From the IMG/VR virus record IMGVR_UViG_3300045988_063194, positions 1 to 40,041 of that record: a DNA stretch of 40,041 nt; one strand, given 5' to 3'. Position 1 is the stretch's first letter, and the number at the start of each line of letters is the position of its first letter. The translations under genes were made by a program, and so were the position numbers. This document shows, one piece after another, positions 1 to 40,041 of the stretch. This stretch comes from a virus. The notes beneath the pieces were generated by a model. The model did no database searches. It saw only the letters and a list, made by a program, of their open reading frames with translations, and was not told the origin of the DNA.

Positions 1-55
1 TCTGGCGGTTTCCAAAAGTGCCTCCAGCGGGACTCGAACCCACCGGCGAAAAGCC
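1..55. repeat. attL core: 55-bp direct repeat identical to 39987..40041
   Basis: tctggcggtttccaaaagtgcctccagcgggactcgaacccaccggcgaaaagcc occurs at both ends. Positions 19..55 are a duplicated tRNA 3' fragment (variable arm, T-arm, acceptor 3' strand). The integrase stop codon (56..58) directly abuts the repeat. Confidence 0.9.
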
Positions 56-1225
56 TCAGCCACCAACCGTTTCAACGGTTCCATCGACACCTTGCGTCAC
101 GTTTGCCCACATTTTGCCCACATTCCGCGAAAAAAGCAAACCACCCATCCTCTCCGACAACTCGTCCAGATCATCGTCGAAAAGGTCGGCATACACGTCG
201 AGCGTCATGGCGGCGGACTTGTGCCCCAATTGCCTTTGCACGGTCTTGACATTCGCGCCGGACTGCACCATGAGCGAAGCGGCCGTATGTCGTAGATCGT
301 GAATCGTCATGTGGCCACGCTCCACGCCCGCGCGACGAAGAGCCACCGCGAACCATCCATCGCTTCGCGTCGGATTCCAGCCGTTTCCCATCGGCTCGTC
401 CAAAGGCTCGCCGGGAGCGGTGAAAAGGAAATCGGACGGCCTGCGCCCCTCGCATTGCCTGGCGAGCAGTGGACGCAACACCAGTGGGAACATCACCGAA
501 CGTCCATCATGGGTTTTCGGATCCGTCTCCACCATCTCGCTGGACAGTCTGGTGATGCTACGCCAGATGTGGAGCCTGCATCGTTGCAGGTCAACGTCCT
601 CCACACGCAGTGCGACGAGTTCGCCCCAGCGCATGCCGCACAGGCCCAAGGTCAGCACGATCGGCTCACGCCAACCGCACTGCATCGCCACACGAGACAA
701 TTCGTCGGCCGACAGATAGACATGCTTCCGCACCTGCTTTCGCGGCAGCTCGATGCCGTCGCATGGATTGTCGTGGATGCACCGATCGGCCTTTGCCCTC
801 TCCATGAGACTGCGGAGCAGATTCTCGGCGCGAATCGTCACGGACGCGCTGCGCCGTCCGGCCAGATCGGTGACCCACCGCTGCACTTCGTCGCGTGTGA
901 TTGACTGCATCTCCCTCATGCCCCACTGCGGCTCCACATGCACGCGCCAAGCGTCTTCCAGCGACTTGATGTAGCTTGGCTTCGCTTTGGTCTTCTTGGC
1001 GGCCAGCCACGGCTCCCAGAAGTCCTCCACGAGCCTGCGCCCGGCCTGTGGGTCGATGTAGGCTCCGACGCTTTTCGCGGTGGTCACATTGGCCGCTCCC
1101 CACGCATCGGCGTCCATCTTGCGTTTGAAGCCACGCCTTCCGGTGGATGAGCCGTCGGGCTTGCGGTAGCGCACCTCGTATCTTTTTCCGGCTTTGGTGG
1201 CGTATTGGCGGATCGTGTAGGCCAT
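56..1225 (-). CDS. int: Tyrosine site-specific integrase
   Basis: 389 aa. N-terminal SAM-like/arm-binding region (AYTIRQYATKAGKRYEVRYRKPDGS). C-terminal catalytic region with RWGEL, HDLRHTAAS and LGHKSAAMTLDVYADL (R..HxxR..Y). RBS GAAGGGGAGAG precedes the ATG at 1225. Confidence 0.95.
   Translation of the reverse strand: MAYTIRQYATKAGKRYEVRYRKPDGSSTGRRGFKRKMDADAWGAANVTTAKSVGAYIDPQAGRRLVEDFWEPWLAAKKTKAKPSYIKSLEDAWRVHVEPQWGMREMQSITRDEVQRWVTDLAGRRSASVTIRAENLLRSLMERAKADRCIHDNPCDGIELPRKQVRKHVYLSADELSRVAMQCGWREPIVLTLGLCGMRWGELVALRVEDVDLQRCRLHIWRSITRLSSEMVETDPKTHDGRSVMFPLVLRPLLARQCEGRRPSDFLFTAPGEPLDEPMGNGWNPTRSDGWFAVALRRAGVERGHMTIHDLRHTAASLMVQSGANVKTVQRQLGHKSAAMTLDVYADLFDDDLDELSERMGGLLFSRNVGKMWANVTQGVDGTVETVGG
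102..123. repeat. Putative integrase arm-type binding sites (tandem TTTGCCCACAT x2), left arm
   Basis: A perfect tandem 11-mer lies 47 bp inside attL. The 17-mer gcccacattttgcccac recurs at 39881..39897, inside attR. In the circular phage both would flank the core, as P and P' arms do. Confidence 0.55.
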
Positions 1226-25329: not shown

Positions 25330-25489
25330 TGGTGCTTCGGGCTGGAGTCGAACCAGCGCTTGTGTGGGGCGCACTGTCTTTTTATCATCACGGGCATTCG
25401 ATTTAAAGAAGTAGGAAGCCATGGCCGGTAAGGTATCCGTCCTAGGTATCTGTGCTATCCCTCGTGCTCTGCCACTGAGCTACCGAAGC
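25330..25489 (-). ncRNA. Aberrant 160-nt tRNA-like gene: canonical acceptor, D and T arms plus encoded CCA, but about 108 nt between position 26 and the T stem
   Basis: The minus strand reads GCTTCGG-TA-GCTC-AGTGGCA-GAGC-A-[108 nt]-GCTGG-TTCGACT-CCAGC-CCGAAGC-A-CCA. The acceptor stem is a perfect 7 bp. U8, A14, G18G19, A21 and the T-loop are conserved. No 5/7/5 anticodon arm could be found by eye. Confidence 0.65.
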
Positions 25490-25545
25490 TGGATATGAAT
25501 AATGGTCCAACCATTTCTGGCTGAACCATTCTACGAACATACGAC

Positions 25546-32820: not shown

Positions 32821-33125
32821 GACCGGGCGTCCCGAATGTCGCACATCGGGTCGATGTGGATTCCGGTGAGCATTTCCGGGGTGTCGCCGCCGCCGCGTTC
32901 GAGGTGACGTTTGAGCGCCTTGTCGATGGCCTGGCATGCGACTCGGGCGGCAAACGCGGTGGCCTCGCCCATGTTGCCGGGCAGGGAGACGCCGATCAGT
33001 CCACCCTTGAAGGGGTCCAGCGGCATGTCGAGTTTGCAGATGAGTGCGGGGCCGGATTCCTGGTTGTCGGGGTCGATGTCGACGCAGAGCGCCCATGTTG
33101 CCACCTGTGGTTTGTTTTCGTTCAT
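32817..33125 (-). CDS. 102-aa hypothetical protein
   Basis: MNENKPQVATWALCVDIDPDNQESGPALICKLDMPLDPFKGG... ATGA overlap with the methyltransferase beta ORF stop. Confidence 0.5.
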   Translation of the reverse strand: MNENKPQVATWALCVDIDPDNQESGPALICKLDMPLDPFKGGLIGVSLPGNMGEATAFAARVACQAIDKALKRHLERGGGDTPEMLTGIHIDPMCDIRDARS

Positions 33126-33475
33126 GATGTGGTTTCCTTCCTGAAAAGTTCCTTGTTGTCTTCAACGAGTTGAATTCCTTCGCCGATCCATCTCATGACC
33201 GGAACGGCCATTGAATTCCCCAACGCCTTGTATCGTGGCCCATCCGGCGCGTGCTCCCTGCCGCGCCATTGGATGTCAGTCCACCCATCAGGGAAGCCCT
33301 GGAGCCGTTCGCATTCCAATGGGGTGAGCCTGCGAACCGTTAAACCTTTCATTGGATCCTCCATGTATAAGGACTGGTCGTTGTGCGTGCTGAGCGTGGC
33401 GGAAAGCTCTTCCTGTCCCAGGAATCCCTTACCCCCCCCCGTTCCTCCACCGCGTATCTTGAAGGTAAGGGCCAT
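33122..33475 (-). CDS. C5-cytosine DNA methyltransferase, C-terminal ORF (last TL-type target-recognition motif plus motifs IX-X)
   Basis: ...ELSATLSTHNDQ...LTVRRLTPLECERLQGFPDGW...YKALGNSMAVPVMRWIG. Its ATG overlaps the TAA of the upstream ORF (TAATG). A G9 tract (33432..33440) lies at codons 12-14. Confidence 0.8.
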   Translation of the reverse strand: MALTFKIRGGGTGGGKGFLGQEELSATLSTHNDQSLYMEDPMKGLTVRRLTPLECERLQGFPDGWTDIQWRGREHAPDGPRYKALGNSMAVPVMRWIGEGIQLVEDNKELFRKETTS

Positions 33476-34644
33476 TAGTCTCTCCCATCGGCTGTCGGAT
33501 AGATGAATGGGGCGTCTTTCCCCGCATGTGCCATCAGTGTCGGCGCAAGATTAAAGCACCGTGCCGCGTTCGATTGACTGTCCGCCCGGCACATCACTTC
33601 TCTCTCTCTCTCGATTTCAGCCACCGCATGTCTGTCAGTGGAAGTCAATGTGAAAGCGCCGTTTTCGTCCGGGTCGGCAACACCAAGCTGGTGTCCGCCG
33701 TTCATTTGTCCGCGACCGACGATGTTTCCTGCCACATCGTAGACGGCTGGATTATGGTCAGTGCTCAATGTCGGATTCAACGCTTTCACAAGTGGGACAT
33801 TGTTCCCACCGGTTCCCATGTGAGAGGTGAGAGTGTTTGACAGGTCCGGATGCTCACTGACCTTGAACCTTCCGTCCTGCTGATGGAAGTCCAACATGAC
33901 AGCCGACTGATCCTGCCCACCGTTCCCACGAGCCTGCAATGTCGGGGCGATTCCGTCAGACGAGTACACTCTCCGAGGCTGGTTCTCACCGTGGGTCAAG
34001 TTTCCAATGCCTGAATCTGCGTTTCCAACGCCGCCAGCAGTTCCACCGGCAAGGCTTTTCCTCTTCTCTCGGCTCGACTGATGATCCCAGCACAGGCTTT
34101 CGCGCTCAAAAAGAACCGGGGCGGCACGTCGCCAGTCTCTAGTGTTGACGACAAGGAACACACGCTCGCGTCGTTGGGCCACACCGAAGAACTGAGCGTC
34201 CAACACTCGCCATGCACCCCCCCCATCAGGCCAGAGTTCGGCCACGGCTTCAAGGAGCGACTGGAAAGCCCGTCCGTGTTCAGCCGACAGTACTCCGGGC
34301 ACGTTCTCCCAGACGATCCATTCCGGATCAATTTCTGCGCAAGCTCGGAGATATTCGAGCATGAGCTGGCCGCGTGGATCGTCCAGAGCCTTCCGGAGTC
34401 CGGCGATGCTGAATGCCTGGCAGGGGCTTCCTCCCACAACGACATCTGCCGCATGGTGGTATTGTTTCCAGTCAACTTTGGTCATGTCTCCTAAATCTGG
34501 TACTTCCGGGTAGTGTTGTCTGAGCACGGCTTTGGGGAATGGTTCGATTTCCGCGTATGCTATTGGCTTCCACCCGAGCTGGTGCCATGCGACGGTGGCG
34601 GCTTCGATTCCGCTGAACAGGCTGATGTAGCGTATCGTGCTCAT
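33475..34644 (-). CDS. C5-cytosine DNA methyltransferase, N-terminal ORF (motifs I-VIII plus several TL-type target-recognition motifs)
   Basis: Motif I ISLFSGIEAATVAW. Motif IV GGSPCQAFSIAG. Motif VI ENVPG. Motif VIII QRRERVFLV. Then PTLQARGNGG, NTLTSHMGTGGNN, PTLSTDHNPAV, FTLTSTDRHAV and PTLMAHAGKD. Contains a G8 tract (34217..34224) and (GA)7 (33599..33612). Confidence 0.85.
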   Translation of the reverse strand: MSTIRYISLFSGIEAATVAWHQLGWKPIAYAEIEPFPKAVLRQHYPEVPDLGDMTKVDWKQYHHAADVVVGGSPCQAFSIAGLRKALDDPRGQLMLEYLRACAEIDPEWIVWENVPGVLSAEHGRAFQSLLEAVAELWPDGGGAWRVLDAQFFGVAQRRERVFLVVNTRDWRRAAPVLFERESLCWDHQSSREKRKSLAGGTAGGVGNADSGIGNLTHGENQPRRVYSSDGIAPTLQARGNGGQDQSAVMLDFHQQDGRFKVSEHPDLSNTLTSHMGTGGNNVPLVKALNPTLSTDHNPAVYDVAGNIVGRGQMNGGHQLGVADPDENGAFTLTSTDRHAVAEIEREREVMCRADSQSNAARCFNLAPTLMAHAGKDAPFIYPTADGRD

Positions 34645-34691
34645 GCTTCACCTTCGATGCGTGCGTTGATGTGGTTGAGGTTGTCGCTCAT
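34641..34691 (-). CDS. Possible 16-aa leader ORF (MSDNLNHINARIEGEA) coupled to the methyltransferase
   Basis: RBS AAAGGAAACACA before the ATG. Its TGA overlaps the methyltransferase ATG (ATGA). Very short, so speculative. Confidence 0.25.
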   Translation of the reverse strand: MSDNLNHINARIEGEA

Positions 34692-34751
34692 TGTGTTTCC
34701 TTTGCTTGTTGCAAGTTGTGTGCCCCGTCCTGACGAGTGGATGGGGCTGAG

Positions 34752-35051
34752 TGGCTGGCATCGGAGTCGAACCGATGCCGTCCTTGGATTCCGAGCGCCC
34801 CTTTGACTGTTGGAACGCGACCTGAACGCGTTCGCGGCCGGTGGCGCGACCGACGGCGATGGAAGCCGTCAGGCATACTTGAAAGGGTTGCAAACACCGG
34901 AGTGCCTGCGTTTTTGATAGAGAGAGAAGAGATTGGAATCCGTGGACGGGCGAACCGTCGCCCAGCCGAATGCGCCGACAGTGTATGTACGGCAGAGAGA
35001 TGGTCGGCGCGTGGATAATAATCGATATTCAGTTATATGGTCCCGCCAGCC
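34752..35051 (-). ncRNA. Candidate structured ncRNA with a tRNA-like T-arm/acceptor 3' module
   Basis: The 3' end reads GGACGGCATCGG-TTCGACT-CCGATGCC-AGCCA (T-loop identical to the 25330..25489 element). The 7-nt strand GCCAGCC is complemented only by GGCTGGC at 35045..35051. Several strong internal hairpins are present. Only Arg-rich shadow ORFs cover the region. The boundaries are uncertain. Confidence 0.35.
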
Positions 35052-35129
35052 GACATGAGTGAACGTGGATGCCCGCGAAAACATCCCAATTGGTTTGTTT
35101 TGTTGGACTGTCGGCTGGTGGGAAGTCTT

Positions 35130-35333
35130 TTAGTCGCGTGGCGCGAATCTGACGATCAGCCACAATGCGGTGGCGATGTACACGCCTTCCACCATGAGCG
35201 CGGCGGTGGTGCTGCCGCCATGCCATGTGAGCATGATGGTCAGGCTGGAGATGAGGCCGATGCTGACGATGGCGAAGAGGATGCGGCGGCGCGTGTAGTT
35301 CGGCTTCCGCCGGGGTTCGATATTGTTGTCCAT
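35130..35333 (-). CDS. 67-aa two-TM membrane protein
   Basis: MDNNIEPRRKPNYTRRRILFAIVSIGLISSLTIMLTW...AALMVEGVYIATALWLIVRF. Weak RBS. Confidence 0.5.
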   Translation of the reverse strand: MDNNIEPRRKPNYTRRRILFAIVSIGLISSLTIMLTWHGGSTTAALMVEGVYIATALWLIVRFAPRD

Positions 35334-35369: not shown

Positions 35370-35597
35370 ATGAAAACGGAGTATCGGATGGTCACGTTCC
35401 ACGTCGCCAGTTCACAGCTTTTTCCTGCCGAGGTCGGTGCTGTCAGGAGCCTTACCCTTGATTTCCTTGGCTCGGCGCCTGAACTGGCCGAGCAGATGGA
35501 TGGTTGGGAGCCGGTCGGCTTCCAACTTCTCCCACAAGGTGAGACGACCTTCATTGCCGTGATGTTGAAGCAGTCGCTCAATCTTTCCGATTGTTGA
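35370..35597 (+). CDS. DUF4177-like small protein, opposite in orientation to the early operon
   Basis: MKTEYRMVTFHV...LAEQMDGWEPVGFQLLPQGETTFIAVMLKQ follows the DUF4177 pattern (M.EY..v.....L...GWE.V......vf.KR-like). Very strong RBS GGAGGGAGGTGA. The alternative minus-strand ORF is Ser/Cys-rich and has no RBS. Confidence 0.55.
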   Translation: MKTEYRMVTFHVASSQLFPAEVGAVRSLTLDFLGSAPELAEQMDGWEPVGFQLLPQGETTFIAVMLKQSLNLSDC

Positions 35598-39961: not shown

Positions 39962-39997
39962 TGGAAAATAAAGGAAAACCGCCATTTCTGGCGGTTT
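39962..39997 (-). terminator. Intrinsic terminator of the host tRNA gene; its distal half belongs to the att core
   Basis: On the minus strand: AAACCGCCA-GAAA-UGGCGGUUU followed by UCCUUUAUUUUCC. Confidence 0.6.
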
Positions 39998-40041
39998 CCA
40001 AAAGTGCCTCCAGCGGGACTCGAACCCACCGGCGAAAAGCC
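39987..40041. repeat. attR core: 55-bp direct repeat identical to 1..55
   Basis: Exact identity over all 55 nt, up to the window edge. Confidence 0.9.
40005..40041 (-). tRNA. 3' part of a class II tRNA (Leu-like: long variable arm, discriminator A); the gene continues beyond the window
   Basis: The minus strand reads GGCTTTTCGCC (variable-arm hairpin)-G-GTGGG-TTCGAGT-CCCGC-TGGAGGC-A. The anticodon is outside the window, so the identity is inferred only. Confidence 0.7.

What the first reader, a model, noticed from the sequence alone, without database searches (positions are those of the whole stretch)
34645..35129. About 480-bp ORF-poor, hairpin-dense region with a tRNA T-arm/acceptor mimic between the C5 methyltransferase and a small membrane-protein gene
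**No credible coding.** In this otherwise tightly packed operon, where genes overlap by ATGA/TTGA, this stretch has no credible CDS. The only track ORFs are Arg-rich shadow frames.

**tRNA-like 3' module.**
- The minus strand ends with GGACG-GCATCGG-TTCGACT-CCGATGC-CAGCCA. This is a T-arm with the same GGTTCGACTCC 11-mer as the tRNA-like gene at 25330.
- It is followed by a 9-bp hairpin (GCCCCAUCC...GGACGGGGC).
- The 7-nt acceptor-like strand GCCAGCC has its only complement (GGCTGGC) about 290 nt upstream, at 35045..35051.

**Strong helices in between.**
- GGGCGA-CGGT-TCGCCC.
- GCGCCGAC...GTCGGCGC (8 bp).
- The palindrome GAACGCGTTC.
- GGAUUCC/GGAAUCC (7 bp, long range).
- An AT-rich patch (ggataataatcgatattcagttatatgg).

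**Interpretation.** This looks like a structured non-coding RNA of about 300 nt with a tRNA-like end, or a tRNA 3'-half remnant such as a secondary att site. It is not spacer DNA.
Basis: partly seen in the sequence, partly recalled or inferred. Interest (0 to 1): 0.62.

Follow-up and report, generated by a model that had tools for sequence, protein, structure and literature searches.

The report
Structured tRNA-like RNA of Bifidobacterium phages
The 480-bp "gap" is a conserved, folded, non-coding RNA element found in at least 130 Bifidobacterium phage genomes; it combines a tRNA-shaped domain with a copy of the leader of the host's ribosomal protein S1 mRNA, matches no described RNA family, and has no tested function.

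Summary
Window 35123..34695 (minus strand) has no credible gene and folds far better than shuffled sequence (z = -5.5).

**Distribution.** The same ~440-nt element occurs in more than 130 IMG/VR contigs and in Bifidobacterium prophages. On 74 distinct copies, 20 of 93 base pairs show compensatory changes.

GGCTGGC at 35045-51 is not the acceptor partner. It covaries with a local partner inside a 5' hairpin.

**Revised anatomy.**
- The acceptor strand CCAGCC pairs with GGCUGG at 34967-62. This closes a 216-nt tRNA-shaped four-way junction with a 12-bp acceptor+T stack and a D-like hairpin with a YGGU loop.
- An enlarged "anticodon" arm carries at its tip the invariant loop UUCAGGU, identical to the host tRNA-Leu(CAG) anticodon loop.
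- Two divergent lineages keep this frame through compensatory changes.
- The AT-rich patch is a near-exact copy of the conserved leader motif of host rpsA (ribosomal protein S1).

**Tests.** Rfam and ARAGORN find nothing: it is not a tRNA, tmRNA or other described family.

**Reading.** Most likely a phage RNA that mimics host translation RNAs. Function is inferred, not shown.

The scan noted the same gap once before on other DNA (e1-1941458).

The parts
35041..35123 (-). H1: long 5' hairpin (UCCCACCAGCCGACA / UGUCGGCUGGCGGGA, 14 bp with one A.C). It begins 6 nt after the stop codon of the 67-aa two-TM gene. Its interior holds an A/C-rich single strand and the invariant CCACGUUCA.
   Evidence: 6 of 14 pairs have compensatory changes (CA/UG to UG/CA in 10-11 sequences); 97% of cells are paired. 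Present in the MFE fold. Coordinates.
35011..35036 (-). rpsA-leader-like motif AUAACUGAAUAUCGAUUAUUAUCCAC, single-stranded between H1 and H2.
   Evidence: 96% identical over 25-29 nt to a block 35-40 nt upstream of the 30S S1 gene in Bifidobacteriaceae (S1 identity by NF005911, E = 1e-242). The 15-mer is invariant in 20/20 loci that were ascertained by an unrelated word.
34972..35010 (-). H2 hairpin GCGCCGAC...GUCGGCGC (8 bp, 23-nt loop).
   Evidence: Two pairs are compensatory in 16 sequences (GCGCCGAC/GUCGGCGC versus GCCACG/CGUGGC).
34752..34967 (-). tRNA-shaped four-way junction (216 nt). Components: acceptor GGCU(GG)/(CC)AGCC plus discriminator-like A 34752; D-like hairpin 34963-34948 (GGGCGA-CGGU-UCGCCC); P helix 34947-34935 with 34792-34780; T arm 34779-34757 (loop UUCGACU).
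   Evidence: The MFE of the single sequence gives this junction. The acceptor is 100% paired, with 30 G.U cells. Lineages B (L075) and C (L064) keep the frame with other letters: GGCUGC/GCAGCC; GGCCG/CGGCC; CACA-UGGU-UGUG; UAACAGG/CCUGUUG. Acceptor + T = 12 bp in all three.
34910..34934 (-). CU-rich, variable single-stranded stretch (AAUCUCUUCUCUCUCUAUCAAAAAC) at the entry of the inner domain.
   Evidence: Length-variable and pyrimidine-rich in all copies. No partner found in the phage.
34890..34909 (-). Ha hairpin GCAGGCAC-UCCG-GUGUUUGC with a UNCG-type tetraloop.
   Evidence: 98% of cells paired; G.U to G-C exchanges at three pairs and 2 pairs with compensatory changes.
34849..34874 (-). Hb hairpin GCC-U-GACGGC ... 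GCCGUC-GGU.
   Evidence: G-C to U-A compensatory change in 13 sequences (GACGGC/GCCGUC versus GACUGC/ACAGUC).
34795..34848 (-). Hc: long irregular hairpin. Its tip, 34833-34813, is GAACGCG-UUCAGGU-CGCGUUC. The loop at 34826-34820 is invariant and has the format of an anticodon loop.
   Evidence: Three tip pairs are compensatory in 13-16 sequences. The loop is identical in lineages B and C and identical to the anticodon loop of host tRNA-Leu(CAG).
34722..34747 (-). 3' hairpin GCCCCAUCC-ACUCGUCA-GGACGGGGC with an invariant 8-nt loop.
   Evidence: Stem replaced by GCCAUGCUCC/GGAGCAUGGC (L022) and by GGGCGGG/CCCGCCC (L048 type) with the same loop. No U tract follows, so it is not a classic terminator.
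34695..34721 (-). Conserved A/C-rich linker and ribosome-binding site (AAAGGAAA) of whichever gene follows. Sequence similarity between phages ends here.
   Evidence: The downstream gene varies.
34641..34691 (-). 16-codon mini-ORF (MSDNLNHINARIEGEA) overlapping the methyltransferase start by ATGA. It belongs to the methyltransferase cassette, not to the RNA element.
   Evidence: Travels with the methyltransferase in other prophages (L138, L136: MSDNL.. 16 aa).

Best explanation
The region encodes a conserved composite structured RNA of about 430 nt, read on the minus strand. It sits in the early region of a family of temperate Bifidobacterium phages, between a small two-TM gene and a slot for variable accessory genes.

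**Modules**
1. A 5' module that copies the leader of the host rpsA (ribosomal protein S1) mRNA: a GC hairpin, then AUAACUGAAUAUCGA..UAUCCAC, followed by a second hairpin.
2. A 216-nt tRNA-shaped four-way junction. Its acceptor and T helices stack to the canonical 12 bp, and its D-like loop carries GG. Its 'anticodon arm' is expanded into a three-hairpin domain; one tip displays the anticodon loop of host tRNA-Leu(CAG).
3. A 3' hairpin with an invariant loop, directly ahead of the next gene's ribosome-binding site.

**Proposed mechanism (inferred)**
- The RNA acts by molecular mimicry of host translation RNAs.
- The leader copy binds whatever binds the rpsA leader. By analogy with E. coli, that is free S1 or the 30S subunit.
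- The tRNA-shaped module is recognised by tRNA-handling enzymes. RNase P at the 5' side and RNase Z at the CCA-less 3' side would cut the RNA out of the polycistronic transcript. That would leave the downstream mRNA with a protective 5' hairpin.

**Shown:** conservation, non-coding nature, base-pair covariation, the tRNA-like frame in three lineages, and the sequence identities with the host rpsA leader and the tRNA-Leu loop.

**Inferred:** transcription, strand, binding partners, processing and biological role.
For: - **Fold:** z = -5.5.
- **Spread:** Hosts are Bifidobacterium.
- **Covariation on 74 distinct copies:** 95.4% of cells paired against 93.0% in shuffles (0/500); 150 compensatory cells against 42.8 (0/500); slid registers give only 28-46% paired.
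- **tRNA frame:** kept with different letters in lineages B and C, with Acc+T = 12 bp in each.
- **T loop:** UUCGACU / UCCGACU / UUCGACA.
- **UNCG tetraloop:** present in Ha.
- **rpsA-leader identity:**. The exact 13-mer occurs about once per Bifidobacteriaceae genome, while the reversed control gives about 0. A type C sublineage has AUAACUGAAAACAGA at the same position, resembling the host variant AUAACUGAAGAACGA.
- **Anticodon-loop identity with host tRNA-Leu(CAG):**
- **No coding signal:**
- **Modularity:** natural deletion variants remove the tRNA-like module (L048 type) or the leader motif (L213, L225).
Against:
- Thermodynamics do not decide the strand. alifold gives -123.5 for plus against -115.2 for minus. 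Internal G.U cells outnumber A.C cells only 182 to 89.
- Within the core family the acceptor, D and P helices vary only on one side or not at all. Their compensatory support rests on two divergent lineages, one of them a single sequence.
- Several T-stem and P1a cells are A.C mismatches.
- S1 binding to the Bifidobacterium rpsA leader is itself untested.
- The leader motif sits about 310 nt upstream of the next start codon, not 35-40 nt as in the host.
- Deletion variants show that each module can be lost.
- The anticodon-loop identity is 7 nt (rough chance about 1%).
- No promoter or terminator consensus was found.
Confidence: 0.55

Rival explanations
1. It is a purely cis-acting leader or riboregulator of the gene that follows. 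The folded RNA, perhaps with S1 recruited to the rpsA-like enhancer, sets translation or mRNA stability of the accessory gene placed after it (often an antirepressor-like Bro-N protein). The nearest analogy is the c4 RNA upstream of icd-ant in P1. The tRNA shape would be only a stabilising or processing scaffold.
For: - Similarity between phages extends exactly to the ribosome-binding site and stops there.
- The 3' hairpin and linker are kept even when the tRNA-like module is deleted.
- About 34 of 112 copies are followed by a Bro-N/antirepressor-like gene.
- RNAalifold pairs the 5'-terminal UUCC with the GGAA of the RBS.
Against: - The downstream gene is highly variable (methyltransferase, pentapeptide protein, 100-aa family, exonuclease), so there is no common target.
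- No loop is complementary to the RBS region with covariation. The UUCC/GGAA pairing is 4 invariant pairs.
- No match to Rfam C4.
- 430 nt with a full tRNA frame is far more than known leaders need.
Confidence: 0.22
2. It is a decoy for tRNA-targeting host defences or toxins, such as VapC-type or other anticodon or acceptor nucleases. The RNA would offer a tRNA elbow and a tRNA-Leu(CAG) anticodon loop as a sacrificial substrate or inhibitor.
For: - The invariant loop is identical to the host tRNA-Leu(CAG) anticodon loop.
- It has a tRNA-like elbow.
- The same phage carries a second tRNA-shaped RNA at 25330-25495 (note e1-3453181), and lineage C has a further one.
Against: - No nuclease or defence partner has been identified.
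- The loop sits more than 25 bp from the junction, unlike a tRNA.
- This reading does not explain the rpsA-leader module.
- It is entirely inferential.
Confidence: 0.1
3. It is a DNA-level element: a module-boundary or recombination sequence, a secondary att or satellite target, or a single-strand origin whose hairpins form in DNA.
For: - It lies at a hot spot where accessory genes are exchanged.
- Several recombinant joints fall inside it (L138, L048 type, L213, G036).
- Hairpins are equally possible on both strands.
Against: - The features are RNA-specific and strand-specific: T-loop sequence, UNCG tetraloop, anticodon-loop identity, and the rpsA leader in mRNA sense.
- The phage's att core is at the contig ends.
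- An origin-like repeat set was noted elsewhere in the phage (e1-3453186, not tested here).
- Covariation keeps long-range pairs 170-210 nt apart, which double-stranded DNA does not need.
Confidence: 0.08
4. It is a decaying tRNA or tmRNA gene, or an unrecognised small protein gene, with no present function.
For: - It has a T-arm-like 11-mer and an acceptor-like strand.
- Long stop-free frames exist.
Against: - ARAGORN (also run with introns) and Rfam find no tRNA or tmRNA.
- Conservation and compensatory changes across more than 130 copies argue for selection.
- There is no codon periodicity and no protein family.
Confidence: 0.03

Closest known systems
Canonical tRNA, and phage-encoded tRNAs
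   Same: - A four-way junction with an acceptor helix and a T arm whose loop is UUCGACU.
- Acceptor + T stack of 12 bp.
- A D-side loop carrying GG.
- An A after the acceptor strand.
- One hairpin tip with a 7-nt loop identical to tRNA-Leu(CAG).
   Different: - 216 nt long.
- The anticodon arm is replaced by a three-hairpin domain of 133-142 nt.
- The D arm is a 3-6 bp hairpin with a 4-nt loop.
- The helix split is 4+8, 5+7 or 6+6 bp instead of 7+5.
- No CCA is encoded.
- It is not detected by ARAGORN or Rfam RF00005.
tmRNA (SsrA)
   Same: - A tRNA-like acceptor/T module whose 'anticodon arm' is replaced by a long helix leading to a large structured domain.
- GGAC precedes the T arm.
- tmRNA is an S1-binding RNA (general knowledge).
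   Different: - No G3:U70 (the pair is C-G).
- No CCA.
- No conserved tag reading frame, since indels shift the frames.
- Hairpins instead of pseudoknots.
- A D-like hairpin is present.
- ARAGORN and Rfam are negative.
P1/P7 C4 and P4 CI RNAs (RNase P-processed immunity RNAs upstream of ant)
   Same: - A structured RNA inside a phage operon, often just upstream of an antirepressor-type gene.
- A tRNA-like substrate shape that could be cut by RNase P.
   Different: - Five times larger.
- No Rfam C4 match.
- No complementary target boxes found in the phage.
- The downstream gene is not constant.
Bacterial Y RNAs (YrlA) with a tRNA-like module
   Same: A non-coding RNA that embeds a T-arm/D-arm tRNA mimic. 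Such RNAs are found in bacteria and phages.
   Different: - In YrlA the ends lie in the anticodon-side stem and it works with Ro60/Rsr.
- Here the ends lie at the acceptor.
- No TROVE/Ro60 gene is present in the phage.
- No Rfam match.
Autoregulatory leader of rpsA mRNA (E. coli S1 operator)
   Same: - The phage 5' module copies the conserved hairpin-plus-AU-rich block of the host's own SD-less rpsA leader.
- In E. coli the rpsA leader is where free S1 represses its own translation (Boni et al. 2001, as cited in PMC4679880).
- PMC4679880 reports TAACTGA repeats ahead of S1 genes in Beggiatoaceae.
   Different: - The Bifidobacterium leader is not a described family (Rfam none) and its ligand is untested.
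- In the phage no start codon follows the motif.
Large ornate prophage RNAs (GOLLD, ROOL)
   Same: Several-hundred-nt, highly structured RNAs of unknown function carried by prophages, often next to tRNA genes.
   Different: No sequence or structure match (Rfam). This element is smaller, and its modules are recognisable mimics of host RNAs.

Membership tests
tRNA (Rfam RF00005 / ARAGORN) | Detected as a cloverleaf by the tRNA covariance model or ARAGORN | tested here: not met
   ARAGORN finds 0 genes in the window and 0 with introns allowed at default threshold. The only call at an 80% threshold is in another register with mismatches. Rfam shows no tRNA hit even at E <= 10.
tRNA (Rfam RF00005 / ARAGORN) | T arm with a T-loop, stacked on the acceptor helix to about 12 bp | tested here: met
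   Loop UUCGACU. Acc+T = 12 bp in three lineages. T-stem pairs covary.
tRNA (Rfam RF00005 / ARAGORN) | 5-bp anticodon stem with a 7-nt loop at the canonical distance from the junction | tested here: not met
   Replaced by the P helix plus a 133-142-nt three-hairpin domain. An anticodon-like loop exists, but at the end of a hairpin of about 54 nt.
tmRNA | G3:U70 alanine identity pair, encoded or added CCA, tag ORF with resume and stop codons, pseudoknots | tested here: not met
   Pair 3:70 is C-G/U.G (columns 197-437). The acceptor is followed by CUC. No frame is conserved. ARAGORN tmRNA search gives only a spurious permuted call on the other strand at a 70% threshold. Rfam finds none.
C4 antisense RNA family (P1 C4 / P4 CI) | Match to Rfam C4, and complementary target sites in the same operon | tested here: not met
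   No Rfam match at E <= 10. No complementary sites for the conserved loops in the window.
Bacterial Y RNA / YrlA | Ro60 (TROVE) partner gene, and a Ro-binding stem formed by the RNA ends | tested here: not met
   No TROVE domain in the phage. The ends close the acceptor, not an anticodon-side stem.
GOLLD / ROOL / other Rfam 15 families | Covariance-model match | tested here: not met
   0 matches at gathering score in the window and in six related or host loci. Only noise at E <= 10.
Host rpsA-leader motif (undescribed; defined here from 29 Bifidobacteriaceae leaders) | GC hairpin followed within 0-8 nt by AUAACUGAA(U/G)A(U/A)CGA ... UAUCCA | tested here: met
   Phage: H1 hairpin, 4 nt, then AUAACUGAAUAUCGAUUAUUAUCCAC. 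Host leaders.
Host rpsA-leader motif (undescribed; defined here from 29 Bifidobacteriaceae leaders) | Start codon of an SD-less ORF 35-40 nt downstream | tested here: not met
   No ATG/GTG/TTG lies in that position in the phage; hairpin H2 follows instead.
Host rpsA-leader motif (undescribed; defined here from 29 Bifidobacteriaceae leaders) | Binding of S1 or the 30S subunit | not testable with these tools
   Needs EMSA, filter binding or toeprinting with Bifidobacterium S1/30S.
Intrinsic terminator / sigma-70 promoter | GC hairpin plus U tract; -35/-10 hexamers | tested here: not met
   None on the minus strand of 35129-34645.

The most novel reading that the evidence does not exclude
The phage makes a chimeric 'translation-factor sponge'. 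A single RNA presents the host rpsA operator together with a tRNA elbow and a tRNA-Leu anticodon loop. This would let it capture free ribosomal protein S1 and tRNA-binding factors, the same host set that tmRNA and Qbeta replicase exploit. On infection or induction it would thereby reprogramme host translation or evade tRNA-directed defence. That would be the first case of a DNA phage mimicking a ribosomal-protein autoregulatory leader.
Probability: 0.25. Interest if true: 0.88.

Novelty: new variant of a known kind. Interest (0 to 1): 0.68.

Why it matters
**Why bifidobacterial phages matter.** Bifidobacteria are key gut commensals, and their temperate phages are poorly understood.

**What is new here.**
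- The element is abundant in human-gut viromes (more than 130 contigs) and is absent from Rfam.
- It is built from recognisable copies of host translation RNAs.
- The same phage carries at least one more tRNA-shaped RNA (25330-25495), and a related phage lineage (type C) carries another. tRNA mimicry therefore looks like a recurring strategy of this phage group.

**Spin-off for the host.** The work also exposes an undescribed, strongly conserved leader motif of the bifidobacterial S1 gene. That makes S1 autoregulation in Actinobacteria directly testable.

**If the mimicry reading holds.** It would add an RNA-based way for DNA phages to tap the host translation apparatus.

Tried and rejected
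- **Rfam 15:** searched at gathering score and at E <= 10 on the window, relatives and host leader; nothing found.
- **ARAGORN:** default, with introns, and relaxed. No credible tRNA or tmRNA.
- **GenBank phage collection:** blastn found no match.
rejected by covariation.
- **Host tRNA as source of the T arm/acceptor:** the only near-identical host hits are inside a histidine-kinase gene (KRFVSDASHELRTPL), so they are chance matches.
- **A 20-nt host hit to the Hc tip:** it lies antisense in a TnpB-like coding region, so it is chance. The phage stem changes are non-synonymous yet compensatory.
- **Promoter reading of the AT patch:** no conserved -35 at a fixed distance in host or phage, and the would-be -10 is replaced in a phage sublineage.
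- **Antisense targets of the conserved loops in the phage:** none.
- **Strand assignment by energy or G.U/A.C counts:** inconclusive.
- **Protein families for the shadow ORFs and neighbouring small genes:** none.
Full report
**Context**

- The window is a complete IMG/VR virus record of 40,041 bp. Its first 56 bases repeat at its end, and that repeat carries the 3' end of a tRNA gene, so it is the phage att core.
- Divergent HTH repressor genes lie at 36.6-37.5 kb (PHROG 4583/8/3).
- Genes to their left run on the minus strand, so the finding lies about 1.5 kb into the early (lytic-direction) gene block.
- It sits between a 67-aa two-TM gene (35333..35130) and a split C5 methyltransferase (34644..33122).
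- The host genus is Bifidobacterium. The element occurs in prophages of B. ruminantium DSM 6489 and of an uncultured Bifidobacterium MAG.

**Check of the observation**

- As a single strand the 485 nt fold to -175.5 kcal/mol. Dinucleotide shuffles give -140.3 +/- 6.4 (z = -5.5). The plus strand gives z = -4.5.
- ARAGORN finds no tRNA or tmRNA. Rfam 15 finds nothing at gathering score, and only noise at E <= 10.
- The stop-free frames in the region show no coding signal:
  - variable alignment columns are spread 89/80/88 over the three codon phases;
  - gap runs are mostly not multiples of three;
  - the frames match no Pfam family.

**Conservation**

- The exact 23-nt T-arm word found 22 IMG/VR contigs. 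blastn showed 78-94% identity from the 3' half of the two-TM gene through the whole gap. Identity stops at the ribosome-binding site of the next gene.
- A third, lineage-independent pattern (GTTCAGGTC-N35-55-GGTYCGACWCC) again hit the limit and added about 35 more loci.
- The downstream gene differs between phages:
  - Bro-N/antirepressor-like: about 34 of 112;
  - a 100-aa family: about 45;
  - a pentapeptide-repeat protein: 13;
  - the methyltransferase cassette: about 10.
- One deletion-variant lineage is followed by a YqaJ-type exonuclease.
- The element is therefore a conserved unit sitting in front of a variable accessory-gene slot.

**Structure**

I aligned 74 distinct full-length copies (A1) and counted a curated structure of 93 pairs in 14 helices.

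| Measure | Observed | Shuffles | Shuffles reaching observed |
|---|---|---|---|
| Cells paired | 95.4% | 93.0% | 0/500 |
| Pairs with changes on both sides | 20 | 14.3 | 1/500 |
| Compensatory cells | 150 | 42.8 | 0/500 |
| Covariation score | 0.116 | 0.077 | 0/500 |

Sliding the 3' partners by 1-3 columns drops pairing to 28-46% and the covariation score to 0.02-0.04.

Clear compensatory exchanges occur in these helices:
- H1: CCAGCC/GGCUGG to CUGGCC/GGCCAG.
- H2.
- Ha.
- Hb: GACGGC/GCCGUC to GACUGC/ACAGUC.
- The Hc tip: GAACGCG/CGCGUUC to GAACAUG/CAUGUUC to CAGCAUG/CAUGCUC.
- The T stem: AUCGG/CCGAU to ACUGG/CCAGU.
- The 3' hairpin.

**Correcting the fold**

That heptamer instead covaries with 35115-35110 inside hairpin H1. 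The acceptor strand stays unchanged in those sequences, so the long-range stem is refuted.
- CCAGCC pairs instead with GGCUGG at 34967-34962. The single-sequence MFE already shows this. It closes a four-way junction of 216 nt made of:
  - the acceptor helix;
  - a D-like hairpin, GGGCGA-CGGU-UCGCCC;
  - a long P helix, GUCC-AC-GGAUUCC / GGAAUCC-AA-GGAC;
  - the T arm.
- Within the core family these helices are nearly invariant or vary through G.U. The acceptor is 100% paired, with 30 G.U cells.
- Two divergent lineages supply the compensatory evidence:
  - Lineage B (L075): GGCUGC/GCAGCC, ACA-CGGU-UGU, GGACGGC/GCCGUCC, CGCGGG/CCCACG.
  - Lineage C (L064 and relatives): GGCCG/CGGCC, CACA-UGGU-UGUG, GGAUUCA/UGAAUCC, UAACAGG/CCUGUUG.
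- In all three lineages:
  - acceptor plus T stems sum to 12 bp, the length of the tRNA acceptor/T minihelix;
  - the D-side loop is YGGU;
  - the T loop is UUCGACU or UCCGACU;
  - the base after the acceptor strand is A.
- The inner domain (133-142 nt) holds:
  - a CU-rich single strand;
  - Ha, with a UCCG (UNCG-type) tetraloop;
  - Hb;
  - the long hairpin Hc.

**Two identities with host RNAs**

*First: the rpsA leader.*
- A DNA search of 236 Bifidobacteriaceae genomes gave 96%-identical 25-29-nt hits to the AT-rich patch in nine genomes.
- In all 7 of these loci that carry the exact 13-mer, the match lies 35-40 nt upstream of a gene that NCBIfam identifies as 30S ribosomal protein S1 (NF005911, E = 1e-242).
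- The exact 13-mer AACTGAATATCGA occurs about once per genome, while its reversed control is almost never found.
- Leaders from 29 species share one architecture: a GC hairpin that varies by compensation, then AUAACUGAA(U/G)A(U/A)CGA...UAUCCA(Y)CC, then an A-rich stretch, then an AUG with no Shine-Dalgarno sequence.
- The phage copies both the motif and the hairpin-then-motif arrangement: H1, 4 nt, then AUAACUGAAUAUCGAUUAUUAUCCAC.
- In the 20 loci ascertained only by the T-arm word that cover this stretch, the 15-mer is invariant. Its conservation is therefore not an artefact of how the loci were found.
- A lineage C sublineage carries AUAACUGAAAACAGA at the same position. This is close to the host variant AUAACUGAAGAACGA.
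- Rfam has no family for this host leader.
- In E. coli the SD-less rpsA leader is the site of S1 autoregulation. TAACTGA repeats precede S1 genes in Beggiatoaceae, where S1 was proposed as the binder (PMC4679880). S1 or 30S binding in Bifidobacterium is therefore an inference.

*Second: the tRNA-Leu(CAG) anticodon loop.*
- The invariant 7-nt loop of the Hc tip, UUCAGGU, is identical to the anticodon loop of the host tRNA-Leu(CAG). The stems are unrelated.
- With about 45 anticodon loops per host and a few 7-nt loops in the element, chance identity is of the order of 1%. I treat it as a lead, not a finding.

**Modularity**

Natural variants delete single modules:
- The L048 type keeps H1, the leader motif, H2 and the 3' hairpin (same loop ACUCGUCA, different stem) but lacks the whole tRNA-like junction.
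- L213 and L225 lack the leader motif.
- A Bifidobacterium genome (G036) keeps only a minimal cloverleaf.
- Lineage C adds a second tRNA-shaped unit downstream.
- The same phage has another tRNA-shaped gene at 25330-25495.

**Strand, and RNA versus DNA**

- Energies do not decide the strand. alifold gives -123.5 for plus against -115.2 for minus on 25 sequences.
- Inside helices, G.U cells outnumber A.C cells only two to one (182 to 89).
- The minus strand is inferred from four features:
  - the T-loop sequence;
  - the UNCG tetraloop;
  - the anticodon-loop identity;
  - the mRNA-sense orientation of the rpsA motif, together with the direction of the flanking genes.
- No promoter or terminator consensus lies in the region.

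**Interpretation**

*Established:*
- It is a widespread, selected, non-coding, highly structured element.
- It has a tRNA-shaped domain and a copy of the host rpsA leader.
- It is not a member of any Rfam family, not a tRNA, tmRNA, C4-type RNA or Y RNA (no Ro60 gene), and not a tRNA remnant.

*Inferred:*
- It is transcribed with the early genes.
- RNase P and RNase Z cut at the tRNA-like borders.
- The leader copy engages S1 or the small subunit.

*Alternatives:*
- A purely cis-acting leader for the following gene.
- A decoy for tRNA-directed nucleases.
- A DNA-level recombination element.

None of the conserved loops has a complementary target elsewhere in the phage.

**Relation to earlier notes**

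Noticed in passing
window 25330-25495 (-): A second tRNA-shaped gene: GCUUCGG-UA-GCUCAGUGGCAGAGC ... about 90-nt insert ... GCUGGUUCGACUCCAGC-CCGAAGC-ACCA. ARAGORN calls it tRNA-Ala(UGC) with an 83-nt insert only with the intron option. It shares the 11-mer GGTTCGACTCC with the present element.
   Followed up: partly
window 1-56 and 39986-40041: A 56-bp terminal direct repeat carrying a tRNA 3' end (GGUUCGAGUCCCGCUGGAGGCA on the minus strand). It is the phage att core; the repeat marks a circular assembly or an excised prophage.
   Followed up: partly
window 34641-34691 (-) and 33122-34644 (-): A 16-codon mini-ORF (MSDNLNHINARIEGEA) overlaps the start of a C5 methyltransferase by ATGA. The methyltransferase is itself split into 389-aa and 117-aa ORFs. 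The mini-ORF plus methyltransferase travel together as a cassette in other prophages (L138, L136).
   Followed up: partly
L149, L145, L180-L209 (host genomes): 35-110 nt upstream of rpsA: An undescribed, strongly conserved leader of the bifidobacterial ribosomal protein S1 gene. It consists of a covarying GC hairpin, then AUAACUGAA(U/G)A(U/A)CGA..UAUCCAYCC, then an SD-less AUG. No Rfam family exists for it.
   Followed up: partly
L064 (and L084, L120, L029), about 40-150 nt downstream of the lineage C element: A further tRNA-shaped unit (GACGUGG ... GCGGG-UUCGACU-CCCGC-CCACGUC-C) followed by a GC hairpin. ARAGORN does not call it.
   Followed up: no
L138 (Bifidobacteriaceae genome G061), about 1490-1580: A recombinant joint inside the T arm. 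A truncated Bro-N-like gene runs directly into ...CCGAUACCAGCC-A, then the 3' hairpin and the methyltransferase cassette. This shows the 3' end of the element acts as a module boundary.
   Followed up: no
window 35370-35597 (+): A 75-aa plus-strand gene with a very strong RBS (GGAGGGAGG) interrupts the minus-strand early block 36 bp upstream of the two-TM gene. No PHROG or Pfam hit was obtained here.
   Followed up: partly
L169 (host genome G039), about 140-175: A 20-nt similarity to the Hc tip lies antisense in a TnpB-like C-terminal motif (CDKCG..DRDLNAAINI). Judged a chance match.
   Followed up: yes
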